In this document: one piece after another, positions 30,677-63,820 of the stretch
Position numbering within the stretch: position 1 is the stretch's first letter
Layout: every line of letters starts with the position of its first letter
IMG/VR virus record: IMGVR_UViG_3300031553_000001
Coordinates: 1 to 64,000 of that record
Source of the DNA: a virus
Length of the DNA stretch: 64,000 bases
Strand: one strand, 5' to 3'
Made by a program: the position numbers and the translations under genes
Notes under the pieces: model-generated
Told to the model about the DNA's origin: nothing
What the model saw: the letters and a program-made list of their open reading frames with translations, nothing else
Databases searched by the model: none

Positions 30677-30693
30677 CTACTATAGTAAACTTG
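30677..30693 (-). promoter_or_regulatory. Phage promoter motif CAAGTTTACTATAGTAG
   Basis: One of five near-identical copies, all at gene boundaries. Confidence 0.7.
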
Positions 30694-33699: not shown

Positions 33700-35790
33700 A
33701 TATTTTGTCTCTTAACATACGTTCATATTGCCGTTCCAAGTCATCCTCTACATTGCCACGAAAGTTGGCATACAAAACCATCACCAACACGATGCTGCCA
33801 AGGATTAGAGGCACGGCGCACACTACTGCCAGAGATGATGGGCCATCGCCACCAGCTGATTTGGCACTCAGATCTTGGGTGACCTGCGAACCAACTCCAG
33901 CAATCAAGCCGACAACGATGGCCGCCAAGAAGAAAGCTATCAACAACAGTTTCAATTCAGAAGTCATCTCAAAACTCCTTTCTGCACCCTATTTACCCTG
34001 CTTGTCCATCAATTTTGGTTTTGGCGTCAACCAAACTTCGGCCGTTGCCGTCATCCCCGCTTTCCGAGTGACTACCATCACCGCTGTCCAACGTGCCTGT
34101 CGTGTTTGCGCTTCCACCTGTCGTGTCCTCTTGACCGCTCGACTTGTTGCATTTCTGCGTACCGCATTTACCGTCGAGGCACTCGCATCTAACTCCGTAC
34201 GCACCTCCTGCCAGATGACACTACCCACTCGAAGTAGCCAAAAGAGAACCACCGCAAGTAGTACACAACCCGCAAAAGTCACCCAACGTTTGATGCTTTT
34301 CAGGTCTCGATCTCGATCTTCAGTCACGTCAAACCTCCTCTACACTAACGTCTAGTAACCCAGCTCCAAACACTTCTTAGTTGCCACCTCTCGATACACG
34401 CCATCAACCATGTCAGCGCACTCTTCATACGTACCTATGTCCTGTTCAACGCAAACATAGATGGCCGCTGCCGCGTCTGGCCCCTGGTAGAGAACCTCCA
34501 TGGCCGCTCGCACACAAGCATCCATGTTCTTGTCCGTTGCCGAACCAGAACCAACGCCAAAATCCAAATCGGGTGTAGGCCCACTAGTTGGCAAGACCCA
34601 AGGAGTAGCGGTGCGGTTGACTTTATGGACTGATGTCAGGAGTACCCTCTTCGTCGCTGTCTTTTCAGCATAACTGTCTCCACCATCCCGCCCAACTGAC
34701 GCACAGCACACTAATAGAAGAAACAATGCTAATGAAACTGCCCCGATCAGAACCTTCATCTTGCTACTCACAACAAACCTCCTAGGTAGTTGAGCCCACT
34801 AAGCACACTGCAACCGCCCAGCAGCACGAAAAGGATGAGTGAGATAAGCATCACGGTGCCCATGAACGACACCCACCCACGAATACAATGCACCTGTTTG
34901 TACAGGTCCTTCAGTTGCTCCAACTGCCCGTGTATACTCGCAACCTCGTCCAGCAGAAGCTGTTCCGTTGTCAATAGTGGCTTCTCTTCATCTGCCTCGG
35001 CCGCCTTCATTACATACTCTGCCATCTTGTTACTCATTGCCATACCTCCTATAGAAACGAACAACACACTAATAGAAGAAACAATGCTAATGAAACTGCC
35101 CCGATCAGAACCTTCGTCTTGCTTTTCACCTCAAAACCCTCCGTCCCCATAGCTCCAGAATTCCAAAGGGAATAGCTGCCAACAAACCTACCACTATCCC
35201 TAGCCAAGGAAAATCATCAAACCCGCTGATTAGCCCACCAAGTAGGGCAAGCACTATACTGATTATCAAAGCCAAACTGACTGCCCCACTACTCATTACA
35301 TCCCTTCCCGCACGTCTGACCGTGCCTTGATAATGCAAACCACGCCCACGCCGATGATTATCAATATCACTACTGGCAGAAAGATAACCTCAAACATCTC
35401 AACCTCCAAAATTCGTGGATGCGTAAATCCAAATCCAAATAGCCGCTGCGATTATCAAGGCCAAAATACCTAGAAATGAGTTATCCCGTCGTGGCTCAAG
35501 TGGCGGCAAAAACGGATACATATCACCCAAATCGCGCCTTCCCATATTGTCAACCTCCAATTACGCTCAACAGCCTTGGATTATCAATACAAGCATCAAC
35601 ACTAATCCTATTCCAAACAGTACAGGCAATCCTATCTCACAAAAGGCTCTTTTCATAATCAACCTCCATATACACCTAGACATAAGAACACCAGTATGAA
35701 AACCGCTACCGCACAACCTACCGCCAAAGCCAAACCGCCAGAACTATCCACATCCAACCCACGCAGATTGTCAATCCAGTTCATATTCAA
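33686..35790 (-). other. Cluster of small membrane/secreted proteins
   Basis: 33686..33967, 33989..34327, 34352..34771, 34768..35067 and 35126..35338, plus shorter hydrophobic ORFs with GGAGG RBS; each has TM or signal segments. Confidence 0.6.
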
Positions 35791-36007
35791 TTCCACCCAC
35801 CCACATGGCTTACGTCAGTGAACGCATCAGCCAAGCGCTTCTTCTGCCCAACATCACGCTGCAAAAATTTGCGGTTGTTGGCTTCACATTCTGCACACAA
35901 TCGTATCCAAACCGTCTTGATTTTCTCATGTCCAGAATCCATATCAATTACATTGACCTGGATTGATAGTGCATATTGCGCTTCTTCTCCACACACATCA
36001 CATTTCA
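35787..36007 (-). CDS. Small zinc-finger protein
   Basis: MKCDVC...LCAEC. Confidence 0.55.
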
Positions 36008-36011
36008 TTGT

Positions 36012-36259
36012 TGACCTCACAAAGCCGTGCCCTGCCGTGCCATTACTCTACGTCATCAGGCTACGCTATTACTGTGCACATCCCCACGTTGCTCCACCAT
36101 TGCATTACCTGTCGCAACCGTATGCCGCTTTGCCATCACATAACCCTATACCACTGTGCCATTGCTCTGCGTCGCAAATCGTGACCCTGCCATCGTTGTG
36201 CGTCACGCTGTCCAACTATACTTCACCACTGCTATACATCACCTGGCGTGACAAAGCCA
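36012..36259 (-). repeat. Non-coding array of eight TGGY-(NN-NGY)n-NN units; candidate guide-RNA array
   Basis: Unit lengths 31,36,31,26,36,31,26,31 nt; 32 of 40 triplet slots are NGY; starts at the RAMP stop codon. Confidence 0.8.
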
Positions 36260-36883
36260 TCACTCTTCTTTTGTCATCTCATATATGATCCTCCCAAAAC
36301 CGCTGCCTCGATTCTGGAGCAGCCCTTGGTAATATCCATAATCAAATAGATTTCTCAAAACCTCCTCCGTGATTGGCCCAGGATATACACTGATTCCACA
36401 TTCAAACCAGGAGTTTTCTGGAATTGACTCACTTCTAGCCAACACCATACGTTGACCAAACGCTGTTTGCGCAGGAAGTGGACGTTCATATATGTCAATT
36501 GTCCCACCGTCGGGTAAATGTAGCGGAATCCACCTTGGTGACACAAAGACCAACTTGGATACCTTGCTTCTCAAAGCCCGTAGTGGCTTGCCAGTTGGCA
36601 TTTTCAATTGTCCATTCAATACCACACCAGCAGCCTTGAGGAAGCCCTTGACGTGATAGTCAAACAGACCTATTTCAAACTCTCCACCATCTGATAGGTA
36701 ATGACGATGGAACACCGTGGTGGCCTGCTCCAGAGCATCGGGGAGACTCTCTATCTCATCCTCTGGAATGGCAAAGTTGTGCTTCTTGGCTATGTATTGG
36801 GTAGCCACATCTCTGGTTGACTGTGATCCCAAGCATGGCGTTATGAACGTCACCTTTGCCTTATAGGTAGCTATGTGTACCAT
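36260..36883 (-). CDS. Solo RAMP / Cas7-like RNA-binding protein
   Basis: N-terminal strand VTFITPCLGS, helix motif HVKGFLKAA, C-terminal Gly-rich loop GLLQNRGSGFGR. Confidence 0.7.
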   Translation of the reverse strand: MVHIATYKAKVTFITPCLGSQSTRDVATQYIAKKHNFAIPEDEIESLPDALEQATTVFHRHYLSDGGEFEIGLFDYHVKGFLKAAGVVLNGQLKMPTGKPLRALRSKVSKLVFVSPRWIPLHLPDGGTIDIYERPLPAQTAFGQRMVLARSESIPENSWFECGISVYPGPITEEVLRNLFDYGYYQGLLQNRGSGFGRIIYEMTKEE

Positions 36884-36911
36884 CTATATCCTCCATTAGA
36901 TTGTCAATCCG

Positions 36912-36928
36912 CTACTATAGTAAACTTG
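36912..36928 (-). promoter_or_regulatory. Phage promoter motif upstream of the RAMP gene
   Basis: CAAGTTTACTATAGTAG, then ATTGACAAT, then GGAGG RBS. Confidence 0.7.
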
Positions 36929-37451
36929 CTGCCAAAGCAATATGGCCACGCCACTCTTTTTCCAGGTTTGGCCTACGCAAGACATAGGCTGGATGCCAAG
37001 TGGCCGCGTATATTGTCCCATCAAACTCATATTCCCACAGCGTTCCAGCCCACTTAGCTTCATTTCCCAAAACTGCCACAAAAGCCGTCTTACCCAACAG
37101 CAATACCATTTCTGGATCCAATCGCTCGATGTCCCTGCGCAGGAATGTGGCACATAGCCTAGCCGCTTTGGCAGGCAACTTATTGTCAATTGGATGACAC
37201 CTCACCACATTGATGTAGGCCGCCATCTCATCTATTCCCAAATCACCTAACGCACTGACTAGCAGTTCGCCAGATCTGCCTATCGGCTTGAAGGTTGGAC
37301 CAACCTTCTCCACATCTCTTCAAGGTGCTTCTTGGACCACTAGGATGCGCGGATTGGGATTGCCTATCACGCCCTGGAATGGATGCGCTTTGTCCCGAAA
37401 CAGGCCACACTCTTGACATATTGGATTGTCAATGCCTGGTTGATCGGCCAC
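36915..37451 (-). pseudogene. Family-4 uracil-DNA glycosylase-like gene with in-frame TGA
   Basis: GTG 37451: ...CQECGL...ILVVQEAP*RDVE...PIGRSG...NVVRCHP...TWHPAYVLR; TGA at 37320-37322. Confidence 0.75.
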
Positions 37452-37452
37452 T

Positions 37453-38340
37453 TTATGCTCCAATATTCCAAAATACCACTGGCTGCTCAAGATGCTCTAT
37501 ATTGTCAATCAACCACAGCCACGCCTTGGCATCATAATACTCATTACATGGAAACGGAATATCCGCATTGTCTACTCCGTCTTTGTAGGCATAATTTTCA
37601 TCTATGAATCGCAAATTGTCGCCTGGAATCACACCAGCCATCTGAGTGATATATTTTCTGGCTGCATCTTTGCTTCTGCTATAACCCATATGAGCTAGGA
37701 TAACCGCTGATTGTTCCCAAGCATTATACAAGCCGCGCACTACACCAGCGCATATAGTACCTGAGCTAATAGACACTACCCAAGTACCCTTAGCGTATAT
37801 ATCATCCGGTGTATACGTTCGTGCTTCCATTGCAGTAGCTACTACTGTCTCTTGCAAACATAACCCATTAGGCATCATCACCCCACGGTCATCAGTCATT
37901 TGAGCCAAGACCTTTTTGGCTTGATGATACAAGACACAACTACGTCCTGCCTGCAATGGAACGATTTGAGCACCTAGATTAGCTGCAACCTGCTGATGCA
38001 TGCGTATTTTATGGTCAGGAAACCAACCATCGCTAGGCGTGCCTGGCTCCAAATACTCATCCTTGTATACCGGATAGAATACGATGCACTTCAGACCTAG
38101 ATGATGACACAGATATGCTACTCCTCTGCCAGCTTTGGAGTGATACGTATCCAATACACCCATAGTTGTATCATGATTGAATTTTGTCAAATATGATACA
38201 ACTCCACGAATCTTGGAGAAGTGTGGGCCACTTGGATCAGGACAACACAAATCCTCGCGCTTAACCCAAACAGGCCAAGTGTCGTCAATATCATACTGTT
38301 CCCAAGGCGTATTGTCAATCAACAGACTGTTAGTGTCCAT
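37453..38340 (-). CDS. PLP-dependent enzyme (fold type II), DNA hypermodification decarboxylase-like
   Basis: VWVKREDL..FSKIRG (PLP lysine), SISSGTI, PFPCNEYYDAKAW, FWNIG. Confidence 0.75.
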   Translation of the reverse strand: MDTNSLLIDNTPWEQYDIDDTWPVWVKREDLCCPDPSGPHFSKIRGVVSYLTKFNHDTTMGVLDTYHSKAGRGVAYLCHHLGLKCIVFYPVYKDEYLEPGTPSDGWFPDHKIRMHQQVAANLGAQIVPLQAGRSCVLYHQAKKVLAQMTDDRGVMMPNGLCLQETVVATAMEARTYTPDDIYAKGTWVVSISSGTICAGVVRGLYNAWEQSAVILAHMGYSRSKDAARKYITQMAGVIPGDNLRFIDENYAYKDGVDNADIPFPCNEYYDAKAWLWLIDNIEHLEQPVVFWNIGA

Positions 38341-38512
38341 TCATCTCCCTGCGTAACTGCTCTTGAGCCAGGATGGCAGCCATCCTGGTTTCTAATGCCC
38401 GTTCCTTGAGATATTCGGCACGCCTATTCAGGGCATCAATTTCAGCACGCTTTATTCGCTTCCATGTAGCCAAATCAACTTGAGTTATAGTCATGACACC
38501 TCTCCTTGTTGT

Positions 38513-38685
38513 GATGGGATGGCACATCCTTTACAGGTATGAATTAAGACGTTACTACCTTACGGCACGTCACCAACTTAGACTCAACGTCACTGATATG
38601 CCAATACTCTCTACCATCCCTGTCGGGACTGGACGGGTATTGGATTACAGTCCTTGGCCTGTCACAGTCTCAGCGCCTTCCCATC
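38513..38685 (-). ncRNA. Candidate ~173-nt structured ncRNA
   Basis: 5' GATGGGAAGGCGC pairs with 3' GTGCCATCCCATC; internal stems; promoter motif directly upstream. Confidence 0.55.
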
Positions 38686-38701
38686 TACTATAGTAAATTT
38701 G
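38685..38701 (-). promoter_or_regulatory. Phage promoter motif (CAAATTTACTATAGTAG)
   Basis: One mismatch to the other copies. Confidence 0.65.
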
Positions 38702-38709
38702 TTCACGAA

Positions 38710-38783
38710 TGGACTCAGCTGGAATCGAACCAACAACCTGCCGCTTATAAGACGGCTACTCTATACCATTGAGCTATGAGTCC
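38710..38783 (-). tRNA. trnI: tRNA-Ile (anticodon UAU), CCA not encoded
   Basis: GGACTCA-TA-GCTC AATGGTATA GAGT-A-GCCGT CT TAT AA GCGGC-AGGTT-GTTGG TTCGATT CCAGC-TGAGTCC-A. Confidence 0.93.
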
Positions 38784-38991: not shown

Positions 38992-41499
38992 TTACTCATA
39001 CAATAAATCCTCCAAAGTGGGCCATCTATAATGCTCTGCAAACGTTGCATCACTAGGATACCAATAATATTGATCCTTCATCTTATGCGGCGGAAGATTT
39101 GACCCTTCCAATTCCCAGTCTTCATCACATCCACTCAATTCAATAGTTCTCAAATCTTTGTACTGTAGTGCTGATGCTTCCAACAACTTATCATTCTTGC
39201 AAGCATGAGTACCATACTCAGCACAGTACAGACATCCAGATTCAAAACAACCAGGCAAAGATTCAAATGGGGCACCCTTCTCTGGCCTATAGAACATGGG
39301 AACAGTCTGACCATGACAGCCACCTTTGGATGTGGTATACCACGGCGCAAGGCTGGAACCGCCCCCACCATCAGCATAGTATTCATAGCACAACGACATT
39401 GTCAATCCAACATCACGTGTCCTGTCCAACAAGGCATTAAGCCATTCGATGCGCACATCTTGTTGGATCGTATACACGCCGCCTATGACATGATTGAACA
39501 GATTGTCAAAGGTGGCCACATGTGGCAGCTTTCTGGAATGCATCCGATCTACGATTATTTGTCGGTTGTTAGCTACTTGCTCCACAAATTTGAATATGAT
39601 ATGATGCCCACCATATTCAGACACCAAATCACATAGCAATAGCAAATCATCTAGTGTGGTTATACCAGCTATTATGGGATTGCATTGGACGCTAATATAA
39701 ATACCGCTATCAACCATCTCAGCCATATTGTCAAACATGGCTTGTAGTGGTGGCGCACCTGGGCTGAACCTACTATAGTGGTCTGGGTTTGATGTGTTGA
39801 TCGACCACTGCATATAGCTGTAAGGATTTTTCAGAAGCGCATCCTGTGCCCACTCTGGGGCCAACTGTCTGGACAGGTAGAAGAATGGCAAACCAGCATC
39901 CAAGAATACTTGAGTGATCTGTTGCGTGATGTGATATGTACTCTCTAATGGATGGAATGGCTCGCTGAAAGATGTAATGTATCCAGCTCCAGAAACCATC
40001 AGATTGTCAATGCGCTTGCGAAAAGCGGCAGGATAGTCAGGATTGACCGTAGGTAGGCCAGTAGCTCTATAGCCCCGCGTGCCATTATTGATATAGCAAT
40101 TATGAACCAGTAAGCCATTAGCATAGAAATTCTCAACAGTGGTTTGGATGTCCCATACATCTAATGGCTCATCCACACGCTCCATACTCGTCAATTCAGT
40201 ATACCTAGCGCTTGCAGCTTCTGCATGTTCCATAACTCCAATATGATCCCATCCACGGCAAAGGATGTCTGGAATCTCTGGAACCGCGCCTGATCCTCTT
40301 CTGGAAAATACCCCTTCACTTCGACAATTTTCAACAGACTGCCTTGTGAATCGTACAGATGGAAATCTGGAAGATATACTTCCTTTGAATCCTCCAGAGA
40401 ATACACCGCCTCCTCGAATATCCAAATGATGTTGTTCGCATCTAGCCATTGCGCAGTTAGCCACTCCCATTCTGAGCGAAAAGTTATCTTGCAGCCAGAT
40501 TTCATTGTGTATGGCTTGCGCTTGCTGGTTTTGTAGCCCATCCCGCCGCTGGCTATTCTCAAGGCCATATCCTCCCGCCATTTCAATGACCTGGTACATC
40601 CTAGAGAATTCTTGTTGCTCCTCAATGTTAATCCTCTTTTGCGCCTTAACTCCTTGGATTGTGGCTTGCCCTTCAATGGGGATGGTCTGCCTTTGCTTTT
40701 GCGTCCCTGCTCCGCACGATGTAGCTGTAGACATGCATCGCATAGCTTCCGATTGCGTTGGCCTGTAGGTTTGCCACATCGTTCGCACATCTTGGCTGCG
40801 TTCATCACATCCGTTTGTGCGCGCCTGGTCTTGTTGGATTTGGCTACGCTTCTCACCTTGCGGATATAACGGCACTTGGCACAGTACTTTTTCCATTGCG
40901 TTGGATTCTCTATGTTGGCACCGCAATCCAAGCAGTGTTTGTACATGATCTCCCTCCCTCAATTGATCCACCCTAGCCCATCCAGCATTATCTGTCAGAA
41001 TTGGGTGATCTCCAGTCACTTTCAAGACATGCCCATCCGCAGTATTCAGTATGTAGTAGCTCTCCACCTGACGCTTGGATACCGCCAGCACCTCTGAGTC
41101 ACATAATCCAACCTCAACACGACCATACACCACATCACCCACTAGCAGATTATCAATGCGTACATCACCATCAGGCGTGGCCACTAGGGCGTCCCCACTA
41201 ACACAGTGCGCACAATTTATGGGGCAAAACCCACCGTATGGGGTGGTGAGGGTTGCCTCTGTGGAACAAGGTCTTGGCCTTTTTCTCTTTGGCTCGTGTT
41301 TGGATTTATACCATCCTCGTGGATTTGGAGCAGATTTATTGATGATATGCTTCATTGGATCGGTATAGACATTGAATGGTTTCGTCTTGCCACCTCTGAC
41401 CATTGCCAATGGGATTGTCAAATAATGGCCGCGTTCGTCTGTTCCCTGCCCCGTTGGTTCATGCAACTTATGAAATTCCTGCCGATCTTCGTCTACCAT
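38992..41499 (-). CDS. Radical SAM enzyme (intein-containing), likely DNA hypermodification isomerase
   Basis: After splicing reads CPINCAH|CY (CxxxCxxC); SFSEPF, NPIIAG; context with AADT and PLP genes. Confidence 0.8.
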   Translation of the reverse strand: MVDEDRQEFHKLHEPTGQGTDERGHYLTIPLAMVRGGKTKPFNVYTDPMKHIINKSAPNPRGWYKSKHEPKRKRPRPCSTEATLTTPYGGFCPINCAHCVSGDALVATPDGDVRIDNLLVGDVVYGRVEVGLCDSEVLAVSKRQVESYYILNTADGHVLKVTGDHPILTDNAGWARVDQLREGDHVQTLLGLRCQHRESNAMEKVLCQVPLYPQGEKRSQIQQDQARTNGCDERSQDVRTMWQTYRPTQSEAMRCMSTATSCGAGTQKQRQTIPIEGQATIQGVKAQKRINIEEQQEFSRMYQVIEMAGGYGLENSQRRDGLQNQQAQAIHNEIWLQDNFSLRMGVANCAMARCEQHHLDIRGGGVFSGGFKGSISSRFPSVRFTRQSVENCRSEGVFSRRGSGAVPEIPDILCRGWDHIGVMEHAEAASARYTELTSMERVDEPLDVWDIQTTVENFYANGLLVHNCYINNGTRGYRATGLPTVNPDYPAAFRKRIDNLMVSGAGYITSFSEPFHPLESTYHITQQITQVFLDAGLPFFYLSRQLAPEWAQDALLKNPYSYMQWSINTSNPDHYSRFSPGAPPLQAMFDNMAEMVDSGIYISVQCNPIIAGITTLDDLLLLCDLVSEYGGHHIIFKFVEQVANNRQIIVDRMHSRKLPHVATFDNLFNHVIGGVYTIQQDVRIEWLNALLDRTRDVGLTMSLCYEYYADGGGGSSLAPWYTTSKGGCHGQTVPMFYRPEKGAPFESLPGCFESGCLYCAEYGTHACKNDKLLEASALQYKDLRTIELSGCDEDWELEGSNLPPHKMKDQYYWYPSDATFAEHYRWPTLEDLLYE
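40099..41205 (-). mobile_element. Intein (369 aa)
   Basis: Block A CVSGDALVATPDG, block B LKVTGDHPI, blocks F/G VWDIQT..NFYANGLLVHN, followed by Cys+1. Confidence 0.92.
40191..40946 (-). CDS. Putative homing endonuclease (Zn ribbons + NUMOD3-like + PD-(D/E)xK), nested out of frame in the intein
   Basis: Own RBS GGAGGGAGATC-ATG; CxxC pairs; KGKPQSKELRRK; FRSEWE..YLPDF..VEVKG. Confidence 0.8.
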   Translation of the reverse strand: MYKHCLDCGANIENPTQWKKYCAKCRYIRKVRSVAKSNKTRRAQTDVMNAAKMCERCGKPTGQRNRKLCDACLQLHRAEQGRKSKGRPSPLKGKPQSKELRRKRGLTLRSNKNSLGCTRSLKWREDMALRIASGGMGYKTSKRKPYTMKSGCKITFRSEWEWLTAQWLDANNIIWIFEEAVYSLEDSKEVYLPDFHLYDSQGSLLKIVEVKGYFPEEDQARFQRFQTSFAVDGIILELWNMQKLQALGILN

Positions 41500-47822: not shown

Positions 47823-47839
47823 CTACTATAGTAAACTTG
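47823..47839 (-). promoter_or_regulatory. Phage promoter motif upstream of the SSB-rSAM-RecA operon
   Basis: CAAGTTTACTATAGTAG, then ATTGATAAT, then GGAGG. Confidence 0.7.
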
Positions 47840-56310: not shown

Positions 56311-57039
56311 CTACTCCGTTGGCCCGTGGATCAGCGCGTCGCGTGCTGCCTTAGACTTGTACTCTGGCTTCCACTTCGTGATTCCCTTGCTCTTCTGATA
56401 TGCCAGGGTCAAGCGCATGTTGTTTACCAATTCATTGTCATGTTCCTCCCAAGTCACCTTGGCATCCTTGGCCTCCGCCACCTTCTCCTCGAAGGTCAGT
56501 GTCGGCCAGTACTCATGAAATTCTATATATTCCTTGGTCTGAGCTACAGCCTCCATCTCTGCAGTACTCATCAAACGTTGCGGCTTTGCTGGAACCACTA
56601 CAACTTCTTCTGACACGCTATCCGCATCAGCATAGGCCACCACATATGCGTGACCTTTCTTGCGGATTGTCAATGCCCGACCTGCTAGAAGCGCCTGGTC
56701 AACCAGCCCAAACAAGTCCGTGAACTCCAAGACTGAAGGCAACTCCACCGCACCAGGTTTTTCCTCAGTGACTTCCTCAGTCATAGCAGGCTTCCTTGTT
56801 CGAACACGTTTGACAGGCAACGCATCTGGAGCCACTTTCTTGCGCCGCTGCCGTCTGACAGGCTTTTCCTCAACAACTTCTGGTTCCTCAACAACTTCTG
56901 GTTCCTCAACAACTTCTGGTTCCTCAATATCAATGCTTTCCTGCTCAACCTCAGGAACCGTGGTGGGCTTACGCCGCGTCACTTTACGCACTCTTCGCTT
57001 CGTCATTTGATTCTCCTTGTTTTGTTGTGGCATCCTCAC
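56311..57039 (-). CDS. Hypothetical charged protein with EEPEVV repeats
   Basis: 18-nt tandem repeat x3.5 at 56866-56928. Confidence 0.6.
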   Translation of the reverse strand: MRMPQQNKENQMTKRRVRKVTRRKPTTVPEVEQESIDIEEPEVVEEPEVVEEPEVVEEKPVRRQRRKKVAPDALPVKRVRTRKPAMTEEVTEEKPGAVELPSVLEFTDLFGLVDQALLAGRALTIRKKGHAYVVAYADADSVSEEVVVVPAKPQRLMSTAEMEAVAQTKEYIEFHEYWPTLTFEEKVAEAKDAKVTWEEHDNELVNNMRLTLAYQKSKGITKWKPEYKSKAARDALIHGPTE

Positions 57040-63624: not shown

Positions 63625-63820
63625 AGCAGACGCGTTCTTTGCGTCTGCTGTAGCAGCGTTCTTTGCTGCTACACCCCGTGCTTTTTCCAGTGTGGCCTTT
63701 AGGGTTCTCTTTTATTTATGGTTCTCTTTTATTTATGGTTCTCTTTTATGGTTCTCTTTAGGGGTGCTTTTTCCAGTGTGGTACCCCGCGTATTTTCGGG
63801 GGTAGTACCCCGTGCTTTTT
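63625..63820. repeat. Iteron-like repeats and twin hairpins, candidate replication origin
   Basis: GGTTCTCTTT x4 (63703-63760); GTGCTTTTTCCAGTGTGG at 63678 and 63764; two hairpins with loop GTTCTTT. Confidence 0.65.

What the first reader, a model, noticed from the sequence alone, without database searches (positions are those of the whole stretch)
36012..36928. Solo Cas7/RAMP-like gene followed by an array with a 5-nt NN-NGY register: candidate minimal RNA-guided system
Seen: starting at the RAMP stop codon, the minus strand parses as TGGC-TT-TGT-CA-CGC-CA-GGT-GA-TGT-AT-AGC-AG / TGGT-GA-AGT-AT-AGT-TG-GAC-AG-CGT-GA-CGC-AC-AAC-GA / TGGC-AG-GGT-CA-CGA-TT-TGC-GA-CGC-AG-AGC-AA / TGGC-AC-AGT-GG-TAT-AG-GGT-TA-TGT-GA / TGGC-AA-AGC-GG-CAT-AC-GGT-TG-CGA-CA-GGT-AA-TGC-AA / TGGT-GG-AGC-AA-CGT-GG-GGA-TG-TGC-AC-AGT-AA / TAGC-GT-AGC-CT-GAT-GA-CGT-AG-AGT-AA / TGGC-AC-GGC-AG-GGC-AC-GGC-TT-TGT-GA-GGT-CA. 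Every unit is 5n+1 long. 32 of 40 triplets are NGY (about 1 in 8 expected by chance) and the other 8 differ by one base. The frame opened by the overlapping ATG stops after 14 codons, and a period of 5 is not codon-driven. The gene has its own promoter motif, and no other cas gene or repeat-spacer CRISPR is visible. Known: Cas7 RAMPs polymerise along guide RNA with a fixed nucleotide step. Inference: each subunit binds a constant GY while the interleaved variable bases form a discontinuous guide, and the TGGY boundaries separate individual guides. With no nuclease nearby, the likely output is silencing of host or rival-phage sequences. I recall similar viral RAMP + GGY/NN-repeat systems being called VIPR but cannot verify that here; this locus uses a relaxed NGY register.
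Basis: partly seen in the sequence, partly recalled or inferred. Interest (0 to 1): 0.95.

Follow-up and report, generated by a model that had tools for sequence, protein, structure and literature searches.

The report
Phage VIPR guide-RNA system, staggered array
A complete 77.7-kb phage genome carries a lone Cas7-like (Vipr) gene followed by eight short 5-nt-periodic guide units, so it is a real member of the VIPR RNA-guided silencing systems first described in 2026, not a new kind of system.

Summary

More than 570 viral contigs encode relatives. In nearly all examined, the strongest period-5 signal starts right after the gene. They share the relaxed NGY register, the +1 register breaks, and a conserved boundary, NGC-AA | N | GGY.

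Units behave as shuffled cassettes between related phages. The two SUSP1 residues that read the first G (H17, D177) are replaced across this clade (S/T, Q). A conserved small Zn-ribbon gene is a candidate accessory protein.

No natural target was found. VIPR, YNNNG-type repeats and "staggered" arrays are already published (bioRxiv 10.64898/2026.04.26.720920), so this is a new member of a known kind. The scan also noted this same stretch in an overlapping window.

The parts
36900..36923 (-). Upstream motif pair. Palindromic TTACTATAGTAG lies at 36923..36912, next to GATTGACAAT at 36909..36900 (contains TTGACA), 17 nt before the vipr ATG. This is a candidate promoter or operator.
   Evidence: 45 matches against 7.4 expected, and 4 exact copies against 0.17 expected. 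Function is inferred only.
36260..36883 (-). vipr gene, 207 aa: a single-RRM Cas7-like RAMP with a beta-hairpin thumb (about residues 130-154) and a G-loop (187-198).
36012..36259 (-). vrRNA array of eight units: 36259-36229, 36228-36193, 36192-36162, 36161-36136, 36135-36100, 36099-36069, 36068-36043, 36042-36012. Each unit is one extra T, then GGY-NN (AGC in unit 7), then 4-6 NGY-NN pentamers; the last NN is mostly RA. There is no spacer-like tail and no excess secondary structure.
   Evidence: RNA fold z-score is +0.40 against shuffles. There is no Rfam family. The same architecture occurs in relatives.
35787..36008 (-). 73-aa CxxC...CxxC zinc-ribbon protein with a basic C-terminal helix; candidate Vipr accessory protein (vap). 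Its GAGG ribosome-binding site (36018..36015) lies inside the last array unit.
   Evidence: Homologs lie directly after the array (L200, L203, L001, L003, L204, L205) or directly before vipr (L082, L006). AF2 pLDDT 87.9. No confident structural or family match.
35767..35776 (-). Next copy of GATTGACAAT, which bounds the vipr-array-Zn-ribbon block on the downstream side.
   Evidence: No terminator-like site lies between the vipr stop and the Zn-ribbon gene.

Best explanation
This is a phage-encoded VIPR (Viral Interference Programmable Repeat) system of the relaxed YNNNG / 'staggered array' kind.

Inferred steps:
- The block vipr - array - Zn-ribbon gene is probably transcribed as one unit from the motif at 36909.
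- Vipr protomers bind one pentamer each, holding the constant G2 and Y3 and exposing the variable bases.
- Each unit opens with a full GGY. It ends with NGC-AA plus one extra base, which breaks the 5-nt register.
- A filament therefore cannot run on into the next unit. This defines eight short guides of 5-7 protomers, about one turn of the six-subunit helix seen for SUSP1.
- By analogy with SUSP1, the guides then bind double-stranded DNA of a competing element through gapped pairing and block transcription. The Zn-ribbon protein acts as a DNA-binding helper.

Shown here: the fold, the homology to SUSP1 Vipr, the array statistics, family-wide conservation of the register and punctuation, cassette exchange, and purifying selection.

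Inferred only: transcription, processing, filament limits, DNA rather than RNA as the target, the pairing rule, and the target's identity.
For: - Array: exact parse and significance.
- Protein: Cas7 fold and full-length profile homology to SUSP1 Vipr, PDB 36pp.
- Relatives: 572 or more IMG/VR stretches encode relatives. In most of 80 loci the strongest period-5 GY signal begins at the gene's stop. There G2 is 0.9-1.0, G1 is 0.3-0.4, shifts are overwhelmingly +1, and the modal unit is 6 pentamers.
- Boundary logo over 828 boundaries: G .99, C .84, A .62, A .70 | N | G .89, G .99, Y .78.
- Positive control: the same parser recovers the four published SUSP1 vrRNAs.
- Cassettes: 18 related arrays are mosaics of 98 unit types, 35 of them shared, in different orders.
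- Second natural copy of the phage (L200): Vipr has 4 synonymous and 0 non-synonymous changes. The array has 11 changes, of which all four at Y3 are C<->T and only one hits G2.
- G1-contacting residues: H17 and D177 of SUSP1 are S/T (144 of 154) and Q (140 of 154) in this family, while W178 and R179 are kept (contacts from 10.64898/2026.04.26.720927).
- Context: a complete virus genome with terminal repeats and no Cas1. The nearest protein clusters are 88-98% viral.
- The VIPR papers report YNNNG repeats and staggered arrays.
Against: - No expression, processing or binding data exist for this locus.
- No natural target was found under any pairing rule.
- Units carry only 10-14 variable NN bases, too few to be unique in a bacterial genome.
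- This particular Vipr deviates at three nearly invariant G-loop positions (G189L, W191N, F199I). W191 aligns with the SUSP1 tryptophan that stacks on G2.
- Sequence similarity to SUSP1 Vipr is weak without profiles.
- I could not see the paper's supplementary figures or tables, so the type assignment and the exact meaning of 'staggered' are unverified.
Confidence: 0.85

Rival explanations
1. The array is one long guide RNA, not eight guides. The extra base about every six pentamers is a structural adjustment once per helical turn, and the whole 48-pentamer filament reads one long or clustered target.
For: Unit length clusters at 6 pentamers, equal to the six-subunit helical repeat reported for SUSP1. 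There are no tails or obvious processing structures between units. Single units are very short for a guide.
Against: Units are gained, lost and reordered as independent cassettes between related phages. The published staggered arrays are described as giving individual processed vrRNAs. I ran no scan built on adjacent units reading adjacent target sites.
Confidence: 0.12
2. The complex targets RNA (transcripts of a rival or the host), as type III and type VII Cas7 backbones do, rather than double-stranded DNA.
For: The closest solved folds in the library searched are RNA-targeting Cas7 proteins, Csm3 and type VII Cas7. DNA binding has been shown only for type II VIPR.
Against: Full-length homology to SUSP1 Vipr, which binds dsDNA and silences from either strand. 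No nuclease or Cas10-like partner is present in the locus.
Confidence: 0.08
3. The locus is a decaying or inactive VIPR: the G-loop substitutions (W191N, G189L) have disabled repeat recognition.
For: Three nearly invariant G-loop positions deviate in this protein. 8 of 40 interior pentamers are off consensus.
Against: Two natural variants differ by 4 synonymous and 0 non-synonymous changes in vipr. Array changes respect G2 and Y3. The reading frame is intact and the boundary motif is intact in 7 of 8 units.
Confidence: 0.07
4. The periodic stretch is protein-coding (for example the 156-aa plus-strand ORF 35818..36288) or a chance compositional feature.
For: A long antisense frame stays open across the array in both natural variants.
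Against: - Period 5 is incompatible with coding, and period-3 power is below the window mean.
- The ORF has no Pfam or PHROG hit.
- Its only real similarity to other loci covers the part antisense to the Zn-ribbon gene.
- Unit lengths of 26 and 31 nt, and unit gain or loss in relatives, would break any frame.
- The score is far above shuffles.
Confidence: 0.02

Closest known systems
VIPR type II of Escherichia phage SUSP1 (Vipr = PDB 36pp; bioRxiv 10.64898/2026.04.26.720920 and .720927)
   Same: - A lone single-RRM RAMP of about 200 aa in a phage.
- Homologous over its full length by profile comparison.
- A pentanucleotide tandem-repeat RNA gene next to it.
- The G2- and Y3-contacting G-loop residues (W, R) are conserved in the family.
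- A small accessory gene sits in the same block.
- No CRISPR array and no Cas1.
   Different: - SUSP1 has GGT repeats with G1 conserved, 13-15 repeats per RNA, a structured tail of about 45 nt after each tract, and no +1 breaks.
- Here G1 is free (37% G), tracts are 5-7 repeats, there are no tails, and units abut with one extra base.
- H17 and D177 are replaced by S/T and Q.
- The accessory protein here is a 73-aa Zn-ribbon; I could not match it to vap1-6.
VIPR variants with YNNNG / NNNNG repeats and 'staggered arrays' (same paper, methods and fig. S18), and non-canonical 5-mer VIPR arrays (bioRxiv 10.64898/2026.10.21.760802)
   Same: The relaxed first position of the fixed trinucleotide. [quoted passage not shown]
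   Different: I could read only the legends, not the figures or tables. Whether this clade, its NGC-AA|N|GGY punctuation, or its Zn-ribbon partner is among the seven published types is therefore unknown.
Class 1 CRISPR backbone subunits (Csm3 of type III-A, Cas7 of type VII)
   Different: The step is 5 nt instead of 6. There is no repeat-spacer array, no Cas1, Cas2, Cas5, Cas6 or Cas10, and the context is viral. The Pfam RAMP model does not recognise the protein.

Membership tests
VIPR system | Vipr protein: minimal single-RRM RAMP with G-loop and thumb, homologous to characterised Vipr | tested here: met
VIPR system | Tandem pentanucleotide repeats (fixed trinucleotide alternating with variable NN) in the intergenic DNA flanking vipr, on the same strand | tested here: met
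   48 pentamers directly after the stop codon, score 43.4 against at most 12.4 in shuffles. The same is seen in relatives.
VIPR system | Canonical GGY fixed motif | tested here: not met
   G1 is G in only 37% of pentamers, while G2 is 90% and Y3 is 92%. The paper accepts 'a related consensus', including YNNNG, so this excludes the canonical subtype and not the family.
VIPR system | Conserved structured 3' tail after the repeat tract (type II vrRNAs) | tested here: not met
   Units abut. The fold z-score is +0.40. SUSP1 tails are recovered by the same parser. The paper describes tail-less staggered arrays as a variant.
VIPR system | Minimal locus without CRISPR array or other cas genes, mostly viral | tested here: met
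   Complete virus record with terminal repeats, no Cas1 and no Pfam RAMP. No CRISPR-like tandem array. PADLOC negative. Phage replication genes lie around it.
VIPR system | Accessory vap gene in the operon | tested here: inconclusive
   The Zn-ribbon gene is adjacent in 9 loci, in two different positions. Equivalence to vap1-6 could not be checked, and no confident fold match was found.
VIPR system | vrRNAs expressed, processed and co-purifying with Vipr | not testable with these tools
   Needs small-RNA sequencing and a pull-down.
VIPR system | Gapped (1-nt skip) recognition of dsDNA targets in competing elements | tested here: inconclusive
   No self-target. No convergent or long-guide hits in IMG/VR. 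There is one single-guide match, to a conserved cysK motif in Chloroflexota, at chance frequency.
CRISPR-Cas (class 1) | Repeat-spacer array plus adaptation and effector cas genes | tested here: not met

The most novel reading that the evidence does not exclude
In this NGY clade the guide may be defined and read differently from SUSP1 in two ways.

(a) A one-base register break inside a conserved NGC-AA|N|GGY mark, rather than a structured tail, sets guide length at about one helical turn.

(b) The freed first position (N1), which varies as fast as the NN bases (0.125 against 0.121 and 0.132), may be read as a third guide base. Each protomer would then specify a full target triplet. That would raise a 6-protomer guide from 12 to about 17 specified bases.
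Probability: 0.15. Interest if true: 0.7.

Novelty: new member of a known kind. Interest (0 to 1): 0.42.

Why it matters
VIPR is a months-old class of programmable, PAM-free DNA-binding systems. This locus is a clean example from a complete genome of its least characterised architecture: tail-less, staggered, with a relaxed register. It comes from a phage whose nearest cellular relative lies in an Anaerolinea (Chloroflexota) genome.

The family-wide comparison gives three testable handles:
- a punctuation motif that may set guide length;
- two residue swaps that explain loss of G1 specificity;
- a conserved Zn-ribbon partner.

If very short guides (5-7 protomers) are functional, that bears on the minimal size of engineered VIPR tools.

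Tried and rejected
- **Self-targeting.** Skip rules 0-3 for NN, and 0-1 for NNN, gave no match in the 77.7-kb genome. The only hit was the array finding itself at skip 3.
- **All-against-all search.** I searched 250 units from relatives against 1.15 Mb of held loci. No rule was enriched over order-shuffled guides, apart from the rules that rediscover arrays.
- **IMG/VR scan with unit 2 under the 1-nt skip.** It gave more than 117 scattered hits, with no convergence of other units on those loci.
- **IMG/VR scans with long units.** A 10-repeat unit (L202) and an 11-repeat unit (L008) from relatives under the 1-nt skip gave 0 hits. Contiguous triplet readings of units 2 and 5 also gave 0 hits. 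Exact matching was required, so these negatives are weak.
- **401 Chloroflexota genomes with unit 2.** There were 8 hits (naive expectation about 10; reversed control 2). Five fall on the conserved E-I-W-R-D-T motif of cysteine synthase, with the skip bases at wobble positions. No other unit matches cysK above controls. I treat this as one chance event multiplied by orthology, kept as a lead only.
- **Second candidate vrRNA at 38635..38555 (-).** Its score of 10.2 is inside the shuffle range.
- **Direct sequence matches to SUSP1 Vipr.** These are insignificant (BLASTP E 0.35; PDB profile E 0.96). Only profile against profile is convincing.
- **Family and fold libraries.** Pfam, PHROGs, NCBIfam and PADLOC give nothing for Vipr or the Zn-ribbon protein. 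Foldseek for the Zn-ribbon model gives only weak ribosomal zinc-ribbon hits.

Full report
**1. The observation**

- It returns the same eight units. Every shift is +1, every extra base is T, and seven of eight units open with GGY.
- Of the 40 interior triplets, 32 are NGY and the other eight are one base off (recount).
- The region holds 16 windows with at least 4 of 5 GY at 5-nt spacing per 250 nt. The minus-strand mean is 0.33 (sd 1.06) and the next best region has 5. The plus strand shows nothing comparable.
- Its local tiling score is 43.4, while the best score anywhere in ten shuffles of the whole 77.7-kb genome is 8.5-12.4.
- The frame opened by the ATG that overlaps the stop codon ends after 14 codons. 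Period-3 power is below the window average.
- As RNA, the stretch folds no better than shuffles (z +0.40). No Rfam family matches.

**2. The protein**

ORF 36260..36883 (-) has no Pfam, PHROG, NCBIfam or PADLOC hit.
- With a 28-sequence alignment, AlphaFold2 gives a confident model (pLDDT 87.4, pTM 0.82). It shows an RRM core, a long beta-hairpin at about 130-154, and a glycine-rich loop before the last strand.
- Foldseek finds type VII Cas7 and type III Csm3 at E 1e-8 to 1e-5.

**3. What is already known**

- VIPR systems are described in bioRxiv 10.64898/2026.04.26.720920. They consist of a Vipr RAMP plus vrRNAs of alternating GGY/NN. They bind dsDNA by pairing only the NN bases, with one target base skipped.
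- The cryo-EM paper, 10.64898/2026.04.26.720927, shows one protomer per repeat. G1 is read by H17 and D177, G2 is held by R138 and W178, and Y3 by R179.
- A later preprint reports further non-canonical 5-mers.

**4. Membership**

I located the SUSP1 locus in KT454805. Its Vipr (L081 28474-29061, minus strand) matches PDB 36pp, 'SUSP1 Vipr protein'.
- Pairwise and profile-to-sequence comparisons with the window's protein are weak.
- A profile of 154 relatives of the window's protein against a profile of 119 relatives of SUSP1 Vipr aligns residues 5-206 with 2-192, at probability 95.3% and E 2e-8.
- The same tiler applied to SUSP1 recovers its four published vrRNAs. They have 13-15 GGT repeats with no register breaks, and each of the three downstream tracts is followed by a non-repeat tail. 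That serves as a positive control and shows how this locus differs.

**5. Relatives**

The family is large and viral.
- It has 1064 representatives at 50% clustering with E<=1e-3.
- At least 572 IMG/VR stretches encode relatives.
- The nearest Atlas clusters are unannotated and 88-98% viral.

In most of the 80 loci fetched, the strongest period-5 GY signal begins at the stop codon of the gene, on the same strand.
- Parsed arrays have G2 at 0.9-1.0, Y3 at 0.6-1.0, but G1 at only 0.3-0.4.
- Register shifts are overwhelmingly +1, and the commonest unit has 6 pentamers.
- Over 828 such boundaries in 59 non-redundant loci the logo is N-G(.99)-C(.84)-A(.62)-A(.70) | extra base | G(.89)-G(.99)-Y(.78)-A(.64). 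Interior pentamers have G1 at only 0.27.
- The tiler does not reward the A-rich end or the extra G, so this punctuation is real. The window's boundaries (NGY-RA, T, GGY) fit it, and the first boundary is formed with the vipr stop codon itself.

**6. Units are modules**

In 18 related gut-phage arrays there are 98 unit types, 35 of them shared. They appear in different numbers, orders and combinations. Units are therefore gained, lost and moved as whole cassettes. This supports the view that each is a separate guide.

Within 63 groups of related units, substitution rates are: N1 0.125, N4 0.121, N5 0.132, G2 0.059 and Y3 0.081. So there are three free positions per pentamer.

**7. Selection in this phage**

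A second metagenomic copy (L200) is 97.8% identical over 2.8 kb.
- It has an identical Vipr protein (4 synonymous and 0 non-synonymous changes in 624 nt).
- It has 11 changes in the 248-nt array: three at N1, three at N5, four at Y3 (all C<->T), and one at G2 in a pentamer that was already off consensus.
- The Zn-ribbon gene differs at 9.5% and the PLP-enzyme gene at 0%, so the region is mosaic.

**8. A structural rationale (inference from alignment)**

The two SUSP1 residues that read G1 are H17 (109 of 119 in its family) and D177 (103 of 119). They align with S/T (144 of 154) and Q (140 of 154) in the window's family. The G2- and Y3-contacting W178 and R179 align with W (138 of 154) and R (135 of 154). 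This fits a clade that has lost G1 specificity and kept G2-Y3.

The window's own protein is odd at three nearly invariant G-loop positions (G189L, W191N, F199I). The purifying selection seen in section 7 argues that it still works.

**9. Locus organisation**

- The genome is a complete virus record with terminal repeats. It has no Cas1 and no Pfam RAMP hit.
- The window has no CRISPR-like tandem array.
- vipr sits in a minus-strand replication and DNA-modification module.
- GATTGACAAT-like motifs are strongly over-represented on that strand. One lies 17 nt before the vipr ATG, and the next lies after the Zn-ribbon gene. No terminator-like site lies between the vipr stop and the Zn-ribbon gene.
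- The 73-aa Zn-ribbon gene starts at 36008, and its GAGG site is inside the last unit. Homologs lie directly after the array or directly before vipr in eight other loci, so it is a candidate accessory protein. Its model is confident but matches nothing informative.
- The one cellular relative found is in an uncultured Anaerolinea genome. This supports a Chloroflexota host range for the clade.

**10. Targets**

None could be established.
- There is no self-match under any rule.
- No rule is enriched among held loci.
- Unit 2 gives only scattered IMG/VR hits with no convergence.
- Long units from relatives, and contiguous-triplet readings of units 2 and 5, give no exact hits.
- In 401 Chloroflexota genomes unit 2 has 8 perfect hits, about the number expected by chance. 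Five of them lie on the conserved E-I-W-R-D-T motif of cysteine synthase, with skip bases at wobble positions. No other unit matches that gene above controls. I record this as a lead, not a finding.
- With 10-14 specified bases, single units cannot be mapped with confidence. That itself raises the question of how such short guides achieve specificity.

**11. Verdict**

However, the system belongs to a kind published in 2026, including its relaxed register and staggered layout. It is a new member of a known kind.

What this analysis adds are leads rather than discoveries:
- the boundary logo;
- the cassette mosaicism;
- the residue-level explanation for the free first position;
- the Zn-ribbon partner;
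- the unusual G-loop of this particular protein.

An overlapping window of the same genome was noted independently by the scan.

Noticed in passing
window 38512-38684 (-), just after tRNA-Ile(TAT) at 38710-38783: A non-coding stretch of about 170 nt that starts after a TTACTATAGTAG copy. It folds strongly (MFE -59 kcal/mol, with its ends paired) and contains a run of 8 NGT-NN pentamers (38594-38555). The period-5 tiling score is 10.2, inside the range of genome shuffles, so it is not supported as a second vrRNA on periodicity alone. No Rfam match.
   Followed up: partly
window 30538-56675, minus strand: GATTGACAAT-like motif: 45 matches within one mismatch against 7.4 expected. About 30 are on the minus strand across the replication and DNA-modification module. 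It is a likely phage promoter or regulator site.
   Followed up: partly
window 30677-30688, 36912-36923, 38685-38696, 47823-47834 (-): Four exact copies of TTACTATAGTAG, which contains the 10-nt palindrome TACTATAGTA (0.17 expected). Two of them lie directly upstream of a GATTGACAAT-like motif.
   Followed up: no
Chloroflexota genomes G001:C14:49859-49878, G058:C1:11448-11467, G221:C74:661-680, G261:C46:3516-3535, G245:C63:1153-1172: The unit-2 guide under the 1-nt skip rule matches the conserved E-I-W-R-D-T motif of cysteine synthase (CysK), with skip bases at codon wobble positions. The hit frequency is at chance level, and no other unit converges on the gene.
   Followed up: yes
window 36260-36883 (-), residues 189, 191, 199: This Vipr has L, N and I where 132, 138 and 141 of 154 relatives have G, W and F. 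Position 191 aligns with the SUSP1 tryptophan that stacks on G2.
   Followed up: partly
window 36915-37313 (-): A short (132 aa) family-4 uracil-DNA glycosylase-like gene immediately upstream of vipr. Its scores are well below the family cut-offs. It differs at 4.3% between the two natural copies of the phage, while the next gene (PLP enzyme, 37453-38340) is identical.
   Followed up: no
window 38992-41499 (-): An 835-aa gene with an intein (Pfam Intein_splicing and Hint) inside a PHROG 'DNA repair photolyase'-like enzyme.
   Followed up: no
window 56866-56927 and 63698-63749: Perfect or near-perfect tandem repeats: 18 nt x 3.4 copies at 100% identity, and 17 nt x 3.1 copies at 97%.
   Followed up: no
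loci L024, L032, L042, L049, L056, L062, L067, L069 and others (gut-phage relatives): A recurring stretch of about 14 pentamers with poor GY quality sits at variable positions inside otherwise regular arrays of 5-8-pentamer units. It may be a conserved non-guide element within those arrays.
   Followed up: no
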